A stretch of DNA of 64,000 nucleotides from an uncultured Candidatus Saccharibacteria bacterium (GCA_964488565.1 CAZAUE010000002.1:40048-104047); one strand, 5' to 3'; shown: positions 340 to 8,060, counted from the first letter of the stretch. Notes: generated by a model not told the origin, from the letters alone. Numbers and translations are program-made.

Positions 340-440
340 CTTTTATATTTCAAGAAACTTCAAATATCATATAGAATTATCCAATTTTGTCAACCATAAT
401 TAAAACACCACAGCTCAATCATTTTCCCCATCACCTTCCC

Positions 441-586
441 AACCCCTCGTCAAGCATCCTCTCACTACGCTCGCTCACCCAGCGTGTTCGCTCCCTGCTA
501 TTGCTCATAAGCTCGTCTGTCTACTGACAGACACCATGCCCGCTTATTTCGCAAAAGCCGCTCGAGAATGCATTGGCTCGGGTTAA
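441..586. repeat. left copy of a roughly 165-bp inverted repeat pair (partner 5128..5306)
   Basis: 94 bp are identical to the reverse complement of 5213-5306 (caagcatcctctcactacgctcgctcacccagcgtgttcgctccctgctattgctcataagctcgtctgtctactgacagacaccatgcccgct). A further 42 bp match with 1 mismatch. The copy contains the internal palindrome gtctgtctactgacagac. Confidence 0.85.
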
Positions 587-967
587 TTTAGTTAGCGAGC
601 CAGCCCATCTCTGATTTTGCCTTTTCTGAGGAGGAGAAAATATATGAAAGCGAATTAAGGGATTTATCCAAAATAATAGGTGCTCGGAGGGCGGTGCTTT
701 AGCCCGCCCTAGAATCTCTGTCGAGCGCCGAGCCGTCAGCCTGCCTGCGGTAGTCAGGCAATAGGCTGACGAAGCGAGGAGGCAAGCGAGGGTTACTTAT
801 TATAGCTGCGAGTGAGGACAAATGTAAGCTTACTTACAGTTTGTCCGAACGAAGCAGATATACAACGTATTTTGGCTTAAATCCCAAATGAGCTAAGTAT
901 ATTTTAGAAGACGAGGACCGAGGTCAAAATTAGAGATGGACTAGGGAGAGGTAAGTTCCGCGCGGAA

Positions 968-1342
968 CTAAACATCAATATTTTTGAAGTGTTTAATTTT
1001 GGCAACCCCCTTAGATTCATCTAATCCGACCGAGATTATATCAATCTGCCACTCCTGTTCTGAATCATATTTCTTTTCCGCGAGATAAGTCCTCGCTGTT
1101 CTGACTACTTTAATCATTTTGGAACTATTGGCTCTTAGTTCTGGCTCGAAGCCGACAATTATTTTCCTGTTAGCTTTAACTTCGACAAAAACCAAAATCC
1201 CCTCTTTCAAAGCAATGATATCTATCTCGCCCCACGGCTTTCTATAATTTAATTCCAGCACAGTATATCCCCTTTTCTCCAAATAACGGGCGACTAAGTT
1301 TTCTGCCAAAAATCCCAGTTCGGATGTTTTACCTTGAGTCAT
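968..1342 (-). CDS. yraN: YraN/UPF0102 family endonuclease-like protein
   Basis: C-terminal region GYTVLELNYRKPWGEIDIIALKEGILVFVEVKANRK matches the UPF0102/YraN core. I place the start at the internal Met (MTQGKTSELGFLAENLVARYLEKRGY, ATG revcomp at 1340-1342), because the 30-aa N-terminal extension in the ORF track is atypical for this family. Confidence 0.65.
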   Translation of the reverse strand: MTQGKTSELGFLAENLVARYLEKRGYTVLELNYRKPWGEIDIIALKEGILVFVEVKANRKIIVGFEPELRANSSKMIKVVRTARTYLAEKKYDSEQEWQIDIISVGLDESKGVAKIKHFKNIDV

Positions 1343-1677
1343 TTTGACCAAATTATCACTAATTTTTTGTCCACACAACCAAATTGACTTTTGGGCCCAA
1401 AAAATGCTAAACTCAGTAGGTAATTCTCGCAAGAGGATTTTTGCTTTATATATAGGAAATACCTGTTTTTTGGTCCCGATGGCTTTGCCATCGAGGATCC
1501 TCGACTGTGTCGGGACTTAATAGGCTAAAAGACTGGCAAGGCTAACTAATTTAAAAATCAATTAGTAAATTACTCAAAAAAATCATAGCCCTGACACTAA
1601 AAGGTCAAGGGGAAGGGTCATTTTGGCCCAAATTAAAAAGCTTCAAAGAAAGCCCCTCGTTTAATTTTTATGGGACC

Positions 1678-2703
1678 TTGGTCCTTGTTATGTTTGTCCT
1701 GATTTTCAAAGGAACTTCTGGTGAGGGTCAGGCAAATCTGTTCAGTAATCTTATTAGGAGCTATATAGAGGAAACCTCTGCGTCAATCATTACTGTCTCC
1801 CAGTCTCAAAATCAGTTAGCTGACATCAATAGTTTGACGGCTTTAAGCGGACAAAACCTGGGACGAGGAGGAGAAGTTTCAAAAAACTTAGATCCTTCAA
1901 CAGTTCAGGAAAATTCGCTAATGGCCAGCAATCCTGTCGCAACAGACTACATTGAAGCTGGATTTACCAGTAACCAAATAATTGAATATACAGTTCAACC
2001 GGGAGATTTGTTGTCTTTTATTGCCTCCGACTATGGAGTAAGTATTGATTCTATACTCTGGGCAAACAGTTTAGCCAATGCTAACAGTATAAAACCAGAC
2101 CAAGTCTTGAGAATTCCTCCTGTTTCCGGTGTAATTCATAAAGTAAAGAGTGGCGATACTGTAGCCTCAATTGCCAAGAAATACGGAGCTACCACAGATA
2201 AAATACTGGCATTTAATCATTTAGAAGATGGGCAGTCATTGGAATTAAATGAGGAATTAATCATTCCTGATGGAAAAATTAAGTCCTCAGTAACAACCAA
2301 ACCCGGAACACAAACAGCAGTTGCTAAAAGATTTTCATATCTTCCTGATTTAGGTGATTATTTCATGATTCCCACACAGGGACGAACAAGCCAAGGGATT
2401 CATGGAAGAAATGGGGTTGATAAAGCCAATCCTTGCGGTACTCCTATCTATGCGGCAGCAGATGGAAATGCTGTAACTGTTGATGGTGTTGGATATAATG
2501 GCGGATTTGGGCAATTTATTAAATTAGCCCACCCCAATGGCACAGAAACACTTTATGCTCATGCAAGTAAGTTGCTTATTACAGCCGGACAAAACGTTGC
2601 CAAAGGCCAATTAATAGCCCTGATGGGCTCCACAGGTCGTTCTACTGGCTGTCACCTTCACTTTGAAGTCCACGGGGCAAGAAACCCCCTCGTTAAGTAC
2701 TAA
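1678..2703 (+). CDS. LysM-domain M23 family metallopeptidase (cell-wall hydrolase)
   Basis: Two LysM-like segments (YTVQPGDLLSFIASDYGVSIDSILWANSL; HKVKSGDTVASIAKKYGATTDKILAFNHL). C-terminal M23 signature (HGRNGVDKA...GSTGRSTGCHLHFEV). Confidence 0.8.
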   Translation: MVLVMFVLIFKGTSGEGQANLFSNLIRSYIEETSASIITVSQSQNQLADINSLTALSGQNLGRGGEVSKNLDPSTVQENSLMASNPVATDYIEAGFTSNQIIEYTVQPGDLLSFIASDYGVSIDSILWANSLANANSIKPDQVLRIPPVSGVIHKVKSGDTVASIAKKYGATTDKILAFNHLEDGQSLELNEELIIPDGKIKSSVTTKPGTQTAVAKRFSYLPDLGDYFMIPTQGRTSQGIHGRNGVDKANPCGTPIYAAADGNAVTVDGVGYNGGFGQFIKLAHPNGTETLYAHASKLLITAGQNVAKGQLIALMGSTGRSTGCHLHFEVHGARNPLVKY

Positions 2704-2728
2704 AAACCACCTTTTCGGTGGTTTTTTG
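2703..2728 (+). terminator. rho-independent terminator after the M23 peptidase gene
   Basis: aaaccaccttttcggtggtttttt: a GC-containing stem followed by a T tract immediately after the stop codon. Confidence 0.7.
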
Positions 2729-2777
2729 ATAGTTCCGCACGGAACAATGCCAAATAAAAAGCCCCGCTACGCTGGGG

Positions 2778-3239
2778 CTAGGACTTCTGTTCTTGCGATA
2801 TTCTACTCTTGAGACTCATTAGGGCTGAGACAAGGACTTCCAGATTGTCTCTAGTCAGCGTCCAAAGGACGTCGTTTTTAAAATCAAACCATAAATTAAT
2901 TTTTAGTTGATTTTTGCGATTAGTCTTAATACCTAACTGGATTTTCACGGCATCAGCAAAAAAGGTCTTTTTGCTTGTTTTTGATCCCCCATCAACAATG
3001 TACTGTAAATACGGCTGGTAATCACTAAAAGAAAAACCATTACCAGCCACCATAAACACTGCGGCCACCTTATCTCCAACCTTCACCACACTCGAACCGG
3101 ACCGTATACCTTTCTTTATAATCCTTCCGAGGGATTGATGTTGTTCATTTAAATAAGGATTGCGAAAGCACCTTCTTAGGTCAATAACTATCATTCCTCT
3201 TCTTAACTGGCAACGTTGAACTGATTGAGGACTAAACAT
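2778..3239 (-). CDS. hypothetical protein
   Basis: 153-aa ORF with a good coding look (start may be the internal MIVIDLRR). No family recognised by eye. A hairpin agccccgctacgctggggct followed by T-run overlaps the stop on the minus strand. Confidence 0.4.
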   Translation of the reverse strand: MFSPQSVQRCQLRRGMIVIDLRRCFRNPYLNEQHQSLGRIIKKGIRSGSSVVKVGDKVAAVFMVAGNGFSFSDYQPYLQYIVDGGSKTSKKTFFADAVKIQLGIKTNRKNQLKINLWFDFKNDVLWTLTRDNLEVLVSALMSLKSRISQEQKS

Positions 3240-3352
3240 CTAGTCTCCTTGATGATTGTTAAGCTTAAAACCTGATATATAATATGCCATTTTAAATAAA
3301 TTACAAGGCGAAAACGGGCCTTTTAAGCCGATTTAATTGTTCCGTGCGGAAC

Positions 3353-4885
3353 TTATGCCAACTCGCTTAGCATCTTCTCATTAATGCGTAGATTTACAGC
3401 TTCGGCCACGTGTTGCTCTTTAATTATCTCAGAACCGTCTAAATCAGCGATAGTGCGGGCAAGCTTCTTGGTTTTATGATATGCCCTTAGTGATTGATTC
3501 TTTGCATTAATAGCTTGTTTGAGCAGATTCTCAGCCTCTTTGGTCAAAATACAGTATTTGTCTATGTTTTTATAATCAATCTCGGAATTATAAAACAAAC
3601 CAGTATTTCTGAACCTAGCCATCTGAATTTCTTTGGCTTTATTGATTTGAGCTTTAATTTCCGCCATTTTTACATTTCCTGAAGGGTAGACCTGTCCAAC
3701 TGTTTCGCGCGGAACATTGATTTGAATGTCTATTCTGTCTAATAACGGCCCAGACACCTTCTTTCTATATTTTAATACTTGAGTAGGGGAGCAGGAGCAA
3801 ATCCCCTTATCCTCGCCAAAATTACCACAGGGACAAGCATTCATAGCGGCCACCAAAGTGAAATTAGCTGGTAGGGTAATTGAGCTAGAGGCCCTAGAAA
3901 CAGAAATGGTGCCTTCTTCAAGGGGTTGCCTTAAGCTTTCTAGGACATTTCTTGGGAATTCCGGAAGTTCATCTAGAAACAAAACACCCCTGTGAGCTAA
4001 GCTTATTTCTCCTGGTTTTGGCCAAGTACCACCACCAACCATTGCTGGAGAAGACGTTGTATGATGCGGGCTTCTAAATGGGCGTTTAAACGAAAGAGGG
4101 GAGTTCTTAAATAGTCCGACTGAACTATAAATCTTGGCAACCTCAATCGCCTCCTCAAAAGACATTTTTGGCAACAACTCAGATAAGGCCTTAGCTAGTA
4201 ATGTTTTTCCTGAACCTGGAGGACCAGACATCAAGATGTTGTGAGCTCCAGCAGCTGCAATAATTAGGGCCCTTTTGGCCGTTTCTTGGCCCTTTATGGA
4301 CAACAATAGACCGTCGTCACCATCTTCAGGAGATTCATTTGTCTTTGCCCGCTCACTAAACAATGGTCGCGTGTTGTTTAAATGACCAACTACTTCTTTA
4401 ATATTCTTTGCCCCAACAACATTAATTCCTTGAACTATTTGCGCCTCAACAAGATTAGAATGGGGGACTATCAACTCTTTAAAACCCTTATTTTTTGCCA
4501 ATATTGCCGTAGCCAACACACCGTTGGTATGCTTTAAAGAGCCGTCTAAAGAAAGCTCGCCAATAAATAATTTTTTAGAGGAATCAAACTGTATTTGTTT
4601 GGTTTCCATCAAATAACCCACGGCAATCGGAAGGTCGTAGGATGGACCTTCTTTTTTAATATCAGCTGGGGCTAGGTTTATAATAATCTTTCTGTGCTTT
4701 GAGTTTGGCGCTGCCAAAGCGCTGTTCTTAATGGCTGAAGCAATCCTGTCTTTGGATTCTTGAACTGCTTTATCGGGAAGTCCGACAATATTAAAAACGT
4801 GAATACCTGGAGTTGAATCAACCTCAACCTCTATGAGTTGCGCGTCTATTCCGCTTATTGCGGAGGAAAAAAGTCTGATGGACAA
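3353..4885 (-). CDS. comM: ComM/YifB family Mg-chelatase-like AAA+ ATPase
   Basis: N-terminal Lon-like domain, Walker A GPPGSGKT, Walker B LFLDELPEF, and a C-terminal segment typical of YifB/ComM. 510 aa. Confidence 0.85.
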   Translation of the reverse strand: MSIRLFSSAISGIDAQLIEVEVDSTPGIHVFNIVGLPDKAVQESKDRIASAIKNSALAAPNSKHRKIIINLAPADIKKEGPSYDLPIAVGYLMETKQIQFDSSKKLFIGELSLDGSLKHTNGVLATAILAKNKGFKELIVPHSNLVEAQIVQGINVVGAKNIKEVVGHLNNTRPLFSERAKTNESPEDGDDGLLLSIKGQETAKRALIIAAAGAHNILMSGPPGSGKTLLAKALSELLPKMSFEEAIEVAKIYSSVGLFKNSPLSFKRPFRSPHHTTSSPAMVGGGTWPKPGEISLAHRGVLFLDELPEFPRNVLESLRQPLEEGTISVSRASSSITLPANFTLVAAMNACPCGNFGEDKGICSCSPTQVLKYRKKVSGPLLDRIDIQINVPRETVGQVYPSGNVKMAEIKAQINKAKEIQMARFRNTGLFYNSEIDYKNIDKYCILTKEAENLLKQAINAKNQSLRAYHKTKKLARTIADLDGSEIIKEQHVAEAVNLRINEKMLSELA

Positions 4886-5127
4886 AAAAGTGTATCGCCC
4901 CTCCTACGACTAGTTATGTTTAATATTAGAATAATAACCCTTATGTTTTAAAAAGCAATCTCTAATATCGCTCTCGCCCCTTATTATTTCCGCTCCCCAG
5001 CCACATACTCTTGAAAAACCGCAATTGGTTTTCTCCTGCGAAAAACCATTGCTTCATGCTCAGCGTTCCGAAGAACCAAGCCGAAACGCTTCCGCAACAT
5101 TTTTCAAGAATACGTGACTGGTTCGCT

Positions 5128-5306
5128 TAACCCGAGCCAATGCATTCTCGAACGGCTTTTGCGAAATAGCTCGGAGTGTGCCGTGCTTTAGCCGGCTTAA
5201 CTCTCTGTAGCGGGCATGGTGTCTGTCAGTAGACAGACGAGCTTATGAGCAATAGCAGGGAGCGAACACGCTGGGTGAGCGAGCGTAGTGAGAGGATGCT
5301 TGGAGA
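5128..5306. repeat. right (inverted) copy of the inverted repeat pair; carries a 40-bp extra module
   Basis: Reverse complement matches 441-586. An additional 40 bp (about 5173-5212) contains the GTGCTTTAGCC module also seen at 693-727 and 11303-11336. Confidence 0.85.
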
Positions 5307-5651
5307 GGGGTTGAAGAAATTTTAAGAATCAAAAAAGGCGCAGAACGCCCCTAATAAGTATGTAGTGTGGGCTCTGCGCCTTTGGGTCTCTTGCGAGACA
5401 TGAATTGCCGGCAATCCACGAATGTGTCTGACCACCAGCTAAAGATCTATACTAATTATACAAAGTCATTGGTGACACTGCAATAGCCAAACTGTGGATA
5501 AGGTGACACCATCAAACCATGGTGACATATTCATGGTGACACCATCAAATATTGGCTAATAGTGTCATTATTCCAAATAATCAGCCCCGCCAAGCGGGGC
5601 TGATTATTTACTAAATTTTATGGTGACAACAGGTTATGCACAAACCATCAC

Positions 5652-7079
5652 CTAAAATCCTTTGAGCTTATCTATTGTTCCAAAGATGGCTTCTCTCGAG
5701 TTTGTTACAACAAAATATGTTTTACCATTAGATGCCACAACAATTGAATAGTCTATCGTTCTGTCGGCAAATGGGAAATTCCAGAATCTAATGTTTGTGT
5801 TCCTGTATGAGTTGTTTGTAAAACCAGTTTGGTCTTTATTGCTTTTACCTAAAGAAAACAGGACCTTAAGATCGTTACTTAAACTATTTTCCCAACTGGT
5901 AATTACTTCGGAAGCACTGGCGGAATCTTTTAGTTCTGCGACAGCCACAATTCTATTAGAGGCAGTGGGTTCAATCAACAAATTACCCTTGGAGTCAAAA
6001 GATTCTTTTTGACCATAAACGAACATGGCGGAATCGTTTCCAATATTGCTTACTAATCCCACTGGAACGTTTAAGGCAAGTTTGGACAATAAATCAACAA
6101 AACCATAGGAAGTAGATGCGTTTTGAGCGTCGATAGTATTCAATATTTTAAATGATCCTGGAACCACAACCACCTTGCCAGTATCAGATACAAAAGACGC
6201 TAGTGCTCCAGTCTGTTTGATACTGACACTCTCTCTTACTACTCCGGAAAACATAGAGCTCAATGTTGGAGTAGGGGTTGGAACTGGTGTTTCTGTTGGA
6301 GTTGGCGTAGGAGTTTCAATTACAATCTCCGGGGCTGGTGCTCTTAAGATAAAGAACCAGTATGCAAATCCGGCCACCAATGCTATAGCGCCGATTCCCA
6401 AAAATAACACATTACGATTACCGCCCTTGGACCCAGCCTCAGGAACATAAATTTGTGACTTTTCCTCTGAAGTTGCTGGTGGTTTTGGGGCATCTTTCAT
6501 TTGAGCTAGTGGGCCCGTTTTCTGGCTTTCGCCCAAATTTACACTTGGAACTTTGAATTGCTGACCTGGTACTGCTGGCTTAGGAACGACGGGTTGAGGA
6601 GCAGGAGCTGCTTGTTCAACCTTTCTGGGAATATTAATTCCGGCTGGTTTTTGGCCTTGTTTTATATTAGAAATATCCTCACTCATTGTTCTGATTGAAG
6701 ATTGATATTCTTTTACGCCCGAGGTTGGTGGGGGAGTAACAGAAGATGGAGCTGGGGCTGGTTTTGATTGAGCAAATGACTGAGGGGGAACATTAAATTG
6801 TGGTCGTGGTGCTTCTGGTTTAGGTGTTGGAGTTGGAACAACTGGAGGTCTCACCGTGGTTGGTGGGACAAATGGTTTTGGTGCTGGCGAAGGAGGAGTT
6901 GCGGGTAAACCAGCCATTGGGGGAGATACTGGCGGTTTAGGTGTTGAGGGAATAGGTCTTGGTGCCTGAGTTGAAGGCGCAAGGGGCGGTGTCGGTGCTA
7001 CAGGATTTGTAGAACTTTTACTTAATTCCCTAACCAAGTCATTTATGTCCATAGTTTGGGGTTTCTGGTCATCTGCCAT
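5652..7079 (-). CDS. proline-rich membrane protein, hypothetical
   Basis: 475 aa. An N-terminal low-complexity P/T/A-rich region of about 200 aa, one TM helix (VLFLGIGAIALVAGFAYWFFIL), and a C-terminal globular domain. No recognisable family. Confidence 0.5.
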   Translation of the reverse strand: MADDQKPQTMDINDLVRELSKSSTNPVAPTPPLAPSTQAPRPIPSTPKPPVSPPMAGLPATPPSPAPKPFVPPTTVRPPVVPTPTPKPEAPRPQFNVPPQSFAQSKPAPAPSSVTPPPTSGVKEYQSSIRTMSEDISNIKQGQKPAGINIPRKVEQAAPAPQPVVPKPAVPGQQFKVPSVNLGESQKTGPLAQMKDAPKPPATSEEKSQIYVPEAGSKGGNRNVLFLGIGAIALVAGFAYWFFILRAPAPEIVIETPTPTPTETPVPTPTPTLSSMFSGVVRESVSIKQTGALASFVSDTGKVVVVPGSFKILNTIDAQNASTSYGFVDLLSKLALNVPVGLVSNIGNDSAMFVYGQKESFDSKGNLLIEPTASNRIVAVAELKDSASASEVITSWENSLSNDLKVLFSLGKSNKDQTGFTNNSYRNTNIRFWNFPFADRTIDYSIVVASNGKTYFVVTNSREAIFGTIDKLKGF

Positions 7080-7212
7080 GAGTAGTGTTTAAATCTGGTA
7101 TTCAGAAATTTAGTATCAAAACTAAAAACCAAAAAACAGATTATGATTATGCTTGAGATAATTTTAACACAACCAAAGAATAAGTTGTAAACATTTGTAA
7201 ACAAAAAAGACC

Positions 7213-7250
7213 TCAACACAGTGAGCTTCACGCTATGCGTGAGGTCTCTT
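7213..7250 (-). terminator. rho-independent terminator (minus strand) downstream of the GC-rich islet gene
   Basis: Minus-strand reading gagacctcacgcatagcgtgaagctcactgtgttgaggtctttttt: an 8-bp stem followed by a U tract. Confidence 0.6.
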
Positions 7251-7412
7251 CTGTGCCGAGGTCGACCTAGGACCGAACGACAGGTTGCTGTTTGACGGGG
7301 CAACCCGTCATCGTCATGGGGTTGCGACGACGGAGCTTCAGGAGCATCCGCCAGAACCAGAATGTCTTTGATTTCTTCATGGATTCTCCTATCTTGGTCG
7401 ATGGGTCAACAA

Positions 7413-7745
7413 CTACTTGATGATGTTGCTGACCTCAGCGATGCCCCAGCCAACTCGATTGATGCCGACGAGGCGTCCGTAGCGGGAAACATTTCCATCT
7501 TCCCGCATCTCTCCACATGCCCAGACGTGGTTCTGACCCTTCTCGTCAGTCCAGGTGACACGATCGAGGTTGACGTCGTCAAAGCCCTCGGCGGGCCAGA
7601 CGTAGACAACGGCGCCGTCGTCCTTGGGTTGAGCAGCAGCGAGTTGTGCCTTGAGCGACCCAATCTCGCTGTTCTTGCTGATCCTGTCCGCTACACTTGG
7701 ACCGATAATGAGCAAGCAGATCATTACCCAACGAAGTTGCGTCAT
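7413..7745 (-). CDS. small secreted protein of foreign (high-GC) origin, hypothetical
   Basis: 110-aa ORF with a strong SD (GGAGGcagtATG) and signal peptide MTQLRWVMICLLIIGPSVA. GC and third-codon-position GC are far above the surrounding genome. Overlapping ORFs on other frames (7362..7820, 7406..7663, 7579..7881) are typical high-GC shadow ORFs. Confidence 0.45.
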   Translation of the reverse strand: MTQLRWVMICLLIIGPSVADRISKNSEIGSLKAQLAAAQPKDDGAVVYVWPAEGFDDVNLDRVTWTDEKGQNHVWACGEMREDGNVSRYGRLVGINRVGWGIAEVSNIIK

Positions 7746-8060
7746 ACTGCCTCCTGCGCGCTAAGCGCGCGTACCGAATTTTTACAGAACGAATCGTATT
7801 TAAATTATACCACATTTTAAGCCATTTTGTCAAACCATGATTTATAACAAAAAACCAGCTTTTTGAGCCGATTTTTAACATTAGCGCAGGAACTCAGTCA
7901 TCTGAAGACATTTGAGACGTTGGCTGAACCGACTGATACAATATTGGACGAAGTCTATCAGTCGGCGATTAGACAATGCGATTATAGCCGAGATAAAACC
8001 GCTCACGGAGGAGCGGTTTTATCGGAGGCGTGTCTGAAGGTGGCTGGGTTCTGGAGCGAT

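What the first reader, a model, noticed from the sequence alone, without database searches (positions are those of the whole stretch)
441..5306. Roughly 165-bp near-perfect inverted repeats bracket a 4.5-kb four-gene segment (yraN, LysM-M23 peptidase, hypothetical, comM)
441-586 and 5128-5306 are reverse complements of each other. A 94-bp core is identical and a further 42 bp have 1 mismatch, and each copy carries an internal hairpin gtctgtctactgacagac. The right copy has a 40-bp module inserted. Long inverted repeats in a small genome can drive inversion of the enclosed segment. They may also mark the ends of a composite or mobilised unit, or be a pair of convergent structured RNAs. Both flanking non-coding regions are unusually long for this genome, at about 540 and about 760 bp.
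Basis: seen in the sequence. Interest (0 to 1): 0.6.

Follow-up and report, generated by a model that had tools for sequence, protein, structure and literature searches.

The report
Structured palindromic repeat element, two copies
The two inverted repeats are two recently inserted copies of a small, strongly folded repeat element that is scattered through genomes of the ultra-small Patescibacteria and can even sit in frame inside genes; they are not the ends of an invertible or mobile four-gene unit.

Summary
Positions 440-586 and 5127-5313 are reverse complements: a 94-nt identical run, 3 mismatches in all, and a 40-nt insert at 5169-5208.

The inversion and composite-unit interpretations fail. 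Eight independent assemblies and five sister Yanofskybacteria species keep the same gene order and orientation. The sister species lack both repeats; their spacers at these sites are short.

Each arm is one copy of a ~147-nt element ("type A") belonging to a family found in at least 28 copies across Patescibacteria contigs (Yanofsky-, Jorgensen-, Saccharibacteria). Family members share:
- a long closing stem and a three-way junction;
- invariant unpaired motifs, GCGGGCAUGGU and a hairpin loop ACGCUGG;
- stems that covary (42 of 45 pairs);
- non-canonical pairs that are G·U or G·A rather than A·C or C·U, so one strand is the folded one.

One subtype sits in frame inside ComF, and orthologues without it exist, as with Rickettsia palindromic elements. 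It probably also sits in frame inside ParB.

There is no Rfam match, no transposase nearby, and no description in the searched literature. The flanking spacers are nests of further small repeats (X, Y and a 40-nt module).

Best reading: a new structured, RPE/ERIC/MITE-like selfish element. How it moves is unknown.

The parts
440..586 (-). Left copy of the type A element (147 nt). Its folded strand is the - strand (5'-TTAACCCGAGCC...GAGGGGTTG-3').
   Evidence: Covariance-model hits of 129.6 bits (R1) and 169.7 bits (R2). RNA minimum free energy -59 kcal/mol on the - strand against -44.6 on the + strand for 430-600.
5127..5313 (+). Right copy of the type A element (187 nt = 147 + a 40-nt nested insert). 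Its folded strand is the + strand.
   Evidence: R2 score 127.8 bits. Fold -79.8 kcal/mol, z = -3.0.
5169..5208 (+). 40-nt nested module M (GCTCGGAG-N26-CTCTGT), inserted in the 5' strand of helix P3 of the right copy.
   Evidence: It is absent from the left copy. The same 40-nt module type lies at 682-721, where its absence from the homologous element in L024 shows it to be an insertion.
533..541 (-). Invariant unpaired motif GGGCAUGGU (the 5' side of the asymmetric internal loop between P3 and P4), left copy. The right copy has it at 5212-5220 (+).
   Evidence: Invariant in the 26 aligned family members. Two diverged copies carry the variants GGGUAUGGU and GGGCAGGGU.
515..532 (-). P4, the variable apical hairpin (GUCUGUC-AGUA-GACAGAC). 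The right copy has it at 5221-5238 (+).
   Evidence: About 20 different hairpin sequences occupy this position across the family, and all but one or two form stems of 5-12 pairs. A strain 99.94% identical to the window has GUCUCU-GAA-AGAGAC here.
473..491 (-). P5 hairpin GCGAAC-ACGCUGG-GUGAGC, with a tandem G·A pair and a conserved 7-nt loop. The right copy has it at 5262-5280 (+).
   Evidence: The loop NCGCUGG is kept while the stem is replaced (GGCUCAC/GUGAGCC in L036; CCUUUUUCC/GGAAAAAGG in L009).
4997..5121 (.). X, a separate 125-bp repeat with 22-bp terminal inverted repeats (CCAGCCACATACTCTTGAAAAA / TTTTTCAAGAATACGTGACTGG), lying 5 nt from the right copy.
   Evidence: pair I5. Copies at 83-90% identity occur in L019, L018 and L016. 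The X + A juxtaposition recurs in L015, L016 and L018.
600..945 (.). Y, a ~345-bp repeat with ~23-bp terminal inverted repeats (CCAGCCCATCTCTGATTTTGCC...), lying 13 nt from the left copy. It carries three nested inserts: a 40-nt module M at 682-721, a 26-nt insert at about 747-772 and a 66-nt insert at about 805-870.
   Evidence: Terminal repeats. L024 1617-1837 is 93-96% identical but lacks all three inserts.
366..393 (-). Promoter-like site (TTGACA-16-TATGAT) of the downstream 127-aa gene. It marks the outer edge of the left insertion zone.
   Evidence: The same promoter directly follows the yraN terminator palindrome in sister species L053 and L058.
5334..5352 (-). Terminator-like hairpin of the 475-aa gene. 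It marks the outer edge of the right insertion zone.
   Evidence: Conserved in L053, where it is followed by ~45-55 bp instead of the window's ~370-400 bp.
955..968 (.). 14-bp palindrome GTTCCGCGCGGAAC at the yraN stop codon, marking the inner edge of the left insertion zone. Sister copies lie at 2732-2745 and 3339-3352.
   Evidence: 4 matches, 0 expected. Also present at the yraN end in L053.

Best explanation
Each arm is one copy of a ~147-nt non-coding, G-rich repeat element that folds on itself. The family is dispersed through Patescibacteria (CPR) genomes.

Shown:
- The window comes from Candidatus Yanofskybacteria GW2011_GWA1_39_13.
- Both copies are lineage-specific additions to two intergenic 'safe havens', each lying between a terminator hairpin and the next promoter, on either side of an old syntenic ComM-M23-YraN block. 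Sister species have short, empty spacers at both sites.
- The element has a conserved architecture: a 20-30-bp closing stem, then a three-way junction. One arm runs P2-P3, an asymmetric loop GGGCAUGGU/GA, and a variable hairpin P4. The other arm is a hairpin P5 with loop ACGCUGG.
- Stem sequences are replaced in a compensatory way, while the unpaired motifs stay invariant across phylum-level lineages.
- Non-canonical pairs are G·U and G·A on one strand only.
- One subtype sits in frame inside ComF, and orthologues lack it. It also reads in frame through the N-terminal linker of ParB; no insert-free ParB orthologue was examined.

Inferred:
- The element is a selfish, non-autonomous mobile repeat of the RPE/ERIC/MITE kind.
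- Its active form is a folded single strand, either ssDNA or a transcript. The invariant loops would be the recognition or cleavage site for a trans-acting enzyme encoded elsewhere in the genome.
- The two copies arose by two insertions, or by copying one from the other. The 40-nt module was inserted into the right copy afterwards.
- The inverted orientation is incidental. It makes RecA-type inversion possible, but none is seen.
For: **Repeat reality**
-.

**A family outside this genome**
- An exact 20-mer hits two other Patescibacteria MAGs, one of them a Saccharibacteria.
- A gapped core pattern hits 31 metagenome contigs, 28 of them true members.
- Covariance models recover 28 copies at 30-170 bits, including diverged second copies in L009, L012, L019 and L030.

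**Structure**
- Type A alone: 87% of cells paired against at most 49% when the partner is slid, and 9 pairs with double changes.
- All types: 86% paired against 35-50% when slid; 42 of 45 pairs with double changes; covariation score 0.58 against 0.17 in shuffles.
- In all 25 members tested the 5' and 3' arms form a duplex of -25 to -43 kcal/mol, against -10 to -22 when the 3' arm is shuffled. The arm sequences are completely different between subtypes.

**Strand-specific folding**
- G·T 64 against A·C 17, and G·A 117 against C·T 4, at paired positions.

**Insertion behaviour**
- In frame between the two CxxC knuckles of ComF. The Pfam DZR_2 match stops at profile position 16 of 56.
- ComF orthologues at 72-82% identity occur without the insert (four), with the full insert (one besides the query itself), and with internally deleted remnants (three).
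- In frame in the ParB N-terminal linker.
- Empty orthologous sites in sister Yanofskybacteria: no model hit in L053-L060. About 25-30 bp lie between the yraN stop and the next promoter (86 bp between the genes), against ~560 bp more in the window. At the right site ~45-55 bp stand against ~370-400 bp.
- A third, 99.3%-identical copy lies in a different context, next to ftsH (L015).
- A nested 40-nt insert.
- The copies sit in unrelated contexts and in both orientations relative to neighbouring genes.

**Source organism**
-.
Against: - No target-site duplication could be defined at any copy.
- No parent insertion sequence or transposase was found in the 64-kb window or around other copies. Only a XerC/D-type recombinase lies at about 11.4-12.3 kb.
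- Density is low: 2 copies per 64 kb.
- The pattern of conservation is the reverse of a classical MITE. The core is invariant and the termini are free to change, which is what a functional structured RNA looks like.
- The all-types pair counts were made on an alignment fitted to the model, which favours the structure (tool caveat).
- The 'empty' sister-species sites differ from the window by more than a clean element-sized gap, so the exact insertion junctions are not resolved.
Confidence: 0.75

Rival explanations
1. The two arms are paralogous genes for a free-standing structured non-coding RNA with a cellular function, such as a protein-binding or regulatory RNA. It would be a new Patescibacteria RNA class rather than a selfish repeat.
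For: - Invariant unpaired motifs and strongly covarying stems across phylum-level lineages.
- One strand is clearly the folded one.
- Some copies are retained at the same locus in related species: the same inter-gene spacer (seryl-tRNA-synthetase-like and neighbouring ORFs) in L012 and L013, and the mraZ-rsmH spacer in L033 and L034.
Against: - Absent from both orthologous sites, and from ±6 kb around them, in five sister species.
- Found in frame inside ComF and ParB.
- Decays by internal deletion inside ComF.
- Occurs in unrelated contexts, in both orientations, and in adjacent inverted pairs.
- Truncated copies exist.
- No promoter-like site is predicted upstream of either copy on its folded strand.
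- Tolerates a 40-nt insertion in helix P3.
Confidence: 0.12
2. The repeats are recombination sites of an invertible 4.5-kb segment, that is, a phase-variation-like switch or a frequent RecA-mediated inversion.
For: Inverted repeats of 147 bp at 98% identity are long enough for homologous recombination. Several assemblies break their contigs inside or at the edges of the arms (L004, L006, L007, L044).
Against: - Every contig that spans a junction shows the same orientation, in 8 independent assemblies.
- Sister species without the repeats have the same orientation.
- No invertase or recombinase lies in or next to the segment.
- Nothing promoter-like would be switched by an inversion.
- Contig breaks are expected at any multi-copy repeat.
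Confidence: 0.04
3. The repeats are the ends of a composite transposon or genomic islet that brought in the four genes.
For: Inverted terminal copies of a repeat flank a gene block.
Against: - The block ComM - M23/CHAP peptidase - YraN, together with its outer neighbours (PNPase, the 450-475-aa protein, the 127-aa protein, TsaE, PolA), is syntenic in species that lack the repeats.
- A 98.4%-identical strain has the block and the right copy but no left copy (L005, L051).
- GC content of the block is that of the genome.
Confidence: 0.02
4. Assembly artefact: a collapsed or chimeric repeat introduced by the assembler.
For: The source is a metagenome-assembled genome, and some scaffolds end inside the arms.
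Against: The same sequence and arrangement were recovered in independent assemblies of different samples and with different assemblers (MEGAHIT k127 and k141, ANAN16 scaffolds, Logan).
Confidence: 0.01

Closest known systems
Rickettsia palindromic elements (RPEs)
   Same: - Palindromic, non-autonomous repeats of ~100-150 bp in small genomes of host-dependent bacteria.
- Several subfamilies.
- Insertion in frame into conserved protein genes, so that the element is translated. Here ComF, with insert-free orthologues, and probably ParB.
- Decay by internal deletion.
- No known transposase.
RPE properties are as summarised in PMC10969869.
   Different: - No sequence relationship was tested, and none is expected given the different phylum.
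- In-frame copies were seen for only one subtype. Type A, the window's subtype, is intergenic: a search of 1.84 billion representative proteins found only two spurious small ORFs.
- An invariant unpaired core shared across phylum-level lineages, and a clear single folded strand, are not features I know to be described for RPEs (own knowledge).
ERIC / IRU elements of Enterobacteria
   Same: - An imperfect palindrome of ~127 bp, mostly intergenic.
- Present or absent at orthologous sites between relatives.
- Copy number low in some genomes and high in others.
- Conserved over a wide taxonomic range.
- Variants with extra internal inserts at fixed positions.
- Thought to act at the RNA level when co-transcribed.
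Sources: PMC10969869 and own knowledge of Wilson & Sharp 2006.
   Different: - No sequence similarity: no match in 5,426 E. coli genomes.
- A three-way junction rather than a simple rod.
- Occurs in both orientations relative to transcription.
MITEs with terminal inverted repeats (e.g. Correia/NEMIS of Neisseria)
   Same: Small, non-coding and multi-copy, with complementary ends. They nest in and next to other small repeats, and they lie between a terminator and a promoter.
   Different: - The termini are the least conserved part across the family and the core is the most conserved, the reverse of a transposase-bound terminal repeat.
- No target-site duplication was found.
- No parent insertion sequence was found.
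REP / REPIN elements mobilised by RAYT (Y1 HUH) transposases, and IS200/IS605 ends
   Same: Recognition of a folded single strand with a conserved unpaired motif and hairpins whose stems may vary. These elements are strand-specific, often occur as inverted doublets (compare L009 and L020), and produce no target duplication.
   Different: - No RAYT or TnpA gene is seen near any copy.
- The GTAG-type REP head is not conserved across subtypes.
- At 147 nt with a three-way junction, the element is larger and more complex than a REP doublet.
- The two window copies lie on the same side of the dnaA-dnaN region in opposite orientations, so there is no obvious replication-strand rule.

Membership tests
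MITE (miniature inverted-repeat transposable element) | Small (under ~500 bp) with no coding capacity of its own | tested here: met
   147 nt. The only open frame is the antisense one (428-583), which has no real protein relatives: two spurious ORFs among 1.84 billion representatives.
MITE (miniature inverted-repeat transposable element) | Terminal inverted repeats conserved within the family | tested here: inconclusive
   The ends are complementary in every copy. Within type A they read AACCCGAGCCAA...TTGGCGAGGGTT. Between subtypes the termini are unrelated, while the core is invariant.
MITE (miniature inverted-repeat transposable element) | Target-site duplication flanking each copy | tested here: not met
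   Flanks of about 12 type A copies were compared by eye. No consistent direct repeat was found. The empty sites in L053 do not give a clean junction.
MITE (miniature inverted-repeat transposable element) | Multiple dispersed copies and presence/absence polymorphism | tested here: met
   - Two copies in the window plus a 99.3%-identical copy in another context (L015).
- Two copies on L009, L012, L019 and L030.
- Absent at orthologous sites in five sister species.
MITE (miniature inverted-repeat transposable element) | A related autonomous insertion sequence with the same ends | tested here: not met
   No transposase domain appears in the gene tables covering the window or next to other copies. 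The rest of the genome could not be searched.
Rickettsia palindromic elements (RPE-like behaviour) | In-frame insertion into conserved protein-coding genes, with uninterrupted orthologues elsewhere | tested here: met
   ComF orthologues occur with the insert, without it, and with remnants of it. The Pfam DZR_2 domain is split. The ParB N-terminal linker also carries the element in frame. This holds for type B only.
Rickettsia palindromic elements (RPE-like behaviour) | Sequence homology to the RPE-1 to RPE-10 consensus sequences | not tested
Membership in the RPE families proper is not claimed.
REP/REPIN-RAYT system | A RAYT (Y1 transposase) gene flanked by the repeats in the same genome | not testable with these tools
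   Only 64 kb of the genome was available, and none was seen in it.
REP/REPIN-RAYT system | A short (20-40 nt) palindrome with a conserved 5' GTAG head, usually in inverted doublets | tested here: not met
   The unit is 147 nt with three helical arms. GTAG follows P5 in types A and B but not in type C.
Any described RNA family (Rfam 15) | A covariance-model match at or near the gathering score | tested here: not met
   Only tRNAs reach the gathering score in the window. Nothing overlaps the left copy at E up to 10. Over the right copy there is only a chance-level mir-375 hit (14.9 bits).
Site-specific invertible DNA segment | Both orientations present in the population | tested here: not met
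   A single orientation in all junction-spanning contigs from 8 assemblies. Read-level data are not available.
Site-specific invertible DNA segment | An invertase or recombinase gene within or adjacent to the segment | tested here: not met
   The enclosed genes are YraN, a LysM-M23 peptidase, an ORF with no Pfam hit, and ComM. The nearest tyrosine recombinase is ~6 kb away.
Diversity-generating retroelement (TR/VR pair) | Repeat differences confined to adenines of the template, a reverse transcriptase nearby, and a variable repeat inside a target gene | tested here: not met
   The three substitutions are at 449, 450 and 561 and are not adenine-specific. Both copies are intergenic, and no reverse transcriptase is in the neighbourhood.

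The most novel reading that the evidence does not exclude
The family is a previously unrecognised class of mobile structured nucleic acid that spans the Patescibacteria. It would be a ~150-nt three-way-junction RNA, or folded ssDNA, whose invariant loops (GCGGGCAUGGU and ACGCUGG) form a catalytic or protein-recognition core. That core would carry out or direct the element's own excision, integration or processing. This would be a mechanism distinct from transposition driven by terminal inverted repeats, and it would explain why the core is frozen while every stem is free to covary.
Probability: 0.25. Interest if true: 0.8.

Novelty: new variant of a known kind. Interest (0 to 1): 0.6.

Why it matters
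Patescibacteria genomes are regarded as streamlined and poor in repeats and mobile DNA. Here a single structured element family is shared by Yanofsky-, Jorgensen- and Saccharibacteria-type genomes. It expands intergenic spacers about six- to nine-fold (568 and 766 bp against a median of 87.5 bp), marks strain-level rearrangement hot spots, and is written in frame into conserved proteins (ComF, and probably ParB). I know that behaviour mainly from Rickettsia.

Three practical consequences follow:
- It gives a concrete covariance model for a census across CPR genomes.
- It offers a handle for finding the trans-acting enzyme by phylogenetic profiling.
- It explains recurrent contig breaks in CPR metagenome assemblies.

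The frozen unpaired core with covarying stems, and the single folded strand, make it a good candidate for biochemical testing as a new functional RNA or ssDNA motif.

Tried and rejected
**Known RNA families**
- Rfam at gathering score and at E up to 10, plus ARAGORN: no known RNA at the repeats.
- I compared the core from memory with SRP RNA, 6S RNA, tmRNA, RNase P RNA, 5S rRNA, the hammerhead, twister and HDV ribozymes, group II intron domain 5, T-box and several riboswitch cores. None fits. 'GGCAUGGU' also occurs at the start of the HDV ribozyme, but no P1 partner exists here. This is my own reasoning and was not tested with a tool.

**Other explanations**
- DGR template/variable repeat pair: rejected, because the substitutions are not adenine-specific and no reverse transcriptase is present.
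- Coding fragment: the arms have no protein relatives.

**Searches that found nothing**
- A protein search with the type B peptide returned nothing. This is a limit of the word index, since the host protein P0003 is in the database.
- Core pattern in viral contigs: 0 hits.
- E. coli genomes, phages and plasmids: no match.
- Six literature searches for palindromic, MITE or structured-RNA elements in CPR/Patescibacteria found no description.

**Inconclusive tests**
- Target-site duplications: none is consistent.
- Orientation relative to neighbouring genes: about 13 co-oriented against 7 anti-oriented, which is not decisive.

**Method note**
- MAFFT with RNAalifold on all subtypes recovered only 18 pairs, because the variable stems were misaligned. 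I replaced this with anchored counts, duplex tests and a model-fitted alignment.

Full report
**1.

Positions 440-544 and 5209-5313 (105 nt), and 545-586 and 5127-5168 (42 nt), are reverse complements at 98% identity. The BLAST E-values are 2e-48 and 4e-15. The only differences are at 449, 450 and 561, plus a 40-nt insert at 5169-5208 in the right copy. The longest identical run is 94 nt. BLAST and an unfiltered covariance-model scan find no third copy in the 64 kb.

The element is 54% G+C in a 39% G+C window. The two spacers that hold the copies are 568 and 766 bp. They are the longest in the window; the median spacer is 87.5 bp.

The window comes from Candidatus Yanofskybacteria bacterium GW2011_GWA1_39_13, a groundwater CPR bacterium.

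**2. Each arm is a self-folding unit and belongs to a wide family**

Each copy folds alone into a long rod, because its own two ends are complementary (z about -3). An exact 20-mer from the core occurs in two other Patescibacteria genome bins, one of them a Saccharibacteria. A gapped core pattern finds 31 metagenome contigs, of which 28 are clearly related and 3 are chance hits in high-GC coding DNA.

Three main subtypes have completely different outer stems:
- type A, the window's type;
- type B, in Jorgensenbacteria-like contigs;
- type C, in Saccharibacteria-like contigs.

All share the same layout:
- a closing stem P1 of 20-30 bp;
- a three-way junction;
- an arm made of P2-P3, an asymmetric internal loop (GGGCAUGGU on the 5' side, GA on the 3' side) and an apical hairpin P4 that is different in almost every copy;
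- a second arm P5, GCGAAC-ACGCUGG-GUGAGC, with a tandem G·A pair and a conserved 7-nt loop.

Pair statistics support this structure.
- Type A alone: 87% of cells are paired, against at most 49% when partners are slid by 1-3 columns. Nine pairs have compensatory double changes.
- All 28 copies, aligned to a model built from type A: 86% paired against 35-50% when slid; 42 of 45 pairs have double changes; the covariation score is 0.58 against 0.17 in shuffles. The caveat is that this alignment is fitted to the model.
- In every one of 25 copies tested, the 5' and 3' arms form a duplex far more stable than with a shuffled partner.

Non-canonical positions are G·T (64) and G·A (117) rather than A·C (17) or C·T (4). 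Selection therefore acts on the fold of one strand, the G-rich one. That is the - strand for the left copy and the + strand for the right copy, so both read outward from the segment.

Rfam 15 has nothing like it.

**3. It behaves as an inserted, selfish repeat, not as a resident gene**

(a) Sister species. Sister Yanofskybacteria were reached through ComM homologues of 72-92% identity. They keep the order PNPase ... 450-475-aa protein - ComM - M23/CHAP peptidase - YraN - 127-aa protein ... TsaE - PolA, in the same orientation. They contain no copy of the element.
- In L053 and L058 the yraN stop and terminator palindrome are followed within about 25-30 bp by the TTGACA promoter of the next gene. 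The window has about 560 bp more at that point.
- On the other side, about 370-400 bp of the window (X + A + M) stand where L053 has about 45-55 bp.

(b) A close strain. A strain 98.4% identical to the window (L005, L051) has the block and the right copy. From position 586 leftward it carries a different small gene instead of the left copy.

(c) A third copy. A copy 99.3% identical to the left copy lies next to ftsH on another contig (L015).

(d) Varied contexts. Copies lie after dnaK, EF-G and groEL, in the mraZ-rsmH spacer and in other spacers between conserved genes. About 13 are co-oriented and 7 anti-oriented with their neighbours.

(e) Insertion into genes. Type B sits in frame inside ComF, between the two CxxC knuckles of the double zinc ribbon. 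The Pfam match stops at profile position 16 of 56. ComF orthologues at 72-82% identity exist in three states: without the insert (four), with the full insert (one besides the query itself), and with internally deleted remnants (three). The same element is in frame in the N-terminal linker of a ParB. In-frame insertion of this kind is the signature of Rickettsia palindromic elements (PMC10969869).

(f) Nested and degraded copies. The right copy carries a nested 40-nt module. A second copy of that module at 682-721 is shown to be an insertion by a homologous element in L024 that lacks it. Truncated and adjacent inverted copies also exist.

**4. No support for inversion or for a composite unit**

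All junction-spanning contigs from 8 assemblies have the window's orientation. No recombinase is in or beside the segment. The block is ancestral, as item 3(a) shows. Contigs that end in the arms (L004, L006, L007, L044) are what any multi-copy repeat causes. A rare inversion cannot be excluded without reads.

**5. How it most likely works**

Shown:
- The two copies are lineage-specific additions at sites between a terminator and a promoter.
- One strand is the folded one.
- The unpaired core is frozen and the stems covary.

Inferred:
- The element is non-autonomous.
- It is handled as a folded single strand, either ssDNA or a transcript, by an enzyme encoded elsewhere. The invariant loops would be the recognition or cleavage site.
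- The closest mechanistic analogies are REP/REPIN-RAYT systems and IS200/IS605 ends.
- The closest behavioural analogies are RPE and ERIC.

What argues against a classical MITE: no target duplication, no parent insertion sequence, and termini that vary between subtypes. No transposase is encoded in the 64 kb. The window holds type IV pilus and T4SS-like clusters, dnaA-dnaN at 51-54 kb, and a Xer-type recombinase at about 11.4-12.3 kb.

The main rival is a free-standing functional RNA gene. It fits the conservation pattern but not items 3(a) to 3(f). I give it about 0.12.

**6. Novelty**

I found no Rfam family and no match in phage, plasmid or E. coli collections or in viral contigs. Searches of the paper library found no description.

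I class it as a new variant of a known kind, the palindromic repeat elements. What is unusual is a core conserved across phylum-level lineages and a strand-specific three-way-junction fold. If that core proves to be catalytic, or to define a new mobilisation mechanism, the finding would be considerably more important.

Noticed in passing
window 4997-5121: X is a separate 125-bp repeat with 22-bp terminal inverted repeats and two internal hairpins. Copies at 83-90% identity lie in L019, L018 and L016. The X + 5 nt + A arrangement recurs at four different loci.
   Followed up: partly
window 600-945: Y is a ~345-bp repeat with ~23-bp terminal inverted repeats whose ends resemble those of X (both start CCAGCC). 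A 93-96% identical copy in L024 (1617-1837) lacks three nested inserts of 40, 26 and 66 nt.
   Followed up: partly
window 682-721 and 5169-5208: A 40-nt module GCTCGGAG-N26-CTCTGT with an internal GC-rich hairpin occurs twice, each time as a clean insertion into another repeat. I do not know how a 40-nt unit would move.
   Followed up: partly
window 955-968, 2732-2745, 3339-3352 (and 3702-3715 with 1 mismatch): The 14-bp palindrome GTTCCGYRCGGAAC occurs only in this gene block within the 64 kb, where 0 matches are expected. It lies at the 3' ends of yraN, the M23 peptidase gene and comM. It is also at the yraN end in sister species L053. It could be a terminator or an operator site.
   Followed up: partly
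window 2778-3239: The 153-aa ORF has no Pfam hit. It is bracketed by two copies of that palindrome (pair I7). It is absent in L053 and L058, where comM and the peptidase gene lie only 23-42 bp apart. It looks like an inserted cassette.
   Followed up: no
window 587-967; L005, L007, L050, L051, L052: The spacer downstream of yraN has at least five haplotypes among strains that are otherwise 98.4-99.98% identical. Each is built from different GC-rich hairpin modules.
   Followed up: partly
L054 5256-5940, L056 5081-5940, L051 3270-3717: At the same hot spot, sister species and strain L051 carry ~0.7-0.8-kb cassettes. Each encodes a small hydrophobic protein with its own promoter and terminator, and each is flanked by yet another inverted repeat (..CAACCGGCGGAGGG..). 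That repeat is also found in L016, L018 and L023.
   Followed up: no
window 5465-5630: A perfect DnaA-box consensus (TGTGGATAA) sits among 5-6 GGTGACA(CC) repeats. The arrangement is conserved in L053 and L058, although dnaA-dnaN lie at 51.4-54.3 kb in the window.
   Followed up: no
L001 14342-14443, corresponding to window 515-532: In a strain 99.94% identical over 12 kb, all 4 mismatches and 2 gaps fall in the P4 hairpin of the left copy. The hairpin is replaced by another perfectly paired one, GTCTCT-GAA-AGAGAC. Possible causes are gene conversion from another copy or remodelling of the hairpin tip.
   Followed up: partly
window 7883-8051; L019 6667-7043: Another intergenic stretch of the window is 84% identical to L019 6667-6834. 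In L019 that stretch lies next to a diverged A copy (6846-7018, 40 bits) and a partial X. The area 7080-8060 may be a further repeat nest.
   Followed up: no
L019 2534-2560: A copy of X is followed by only the first ~18 nt of an A element (AACCTGAGCCAATGCATT). This is either a truncated copy or an excision footprint.
   Followed up: no
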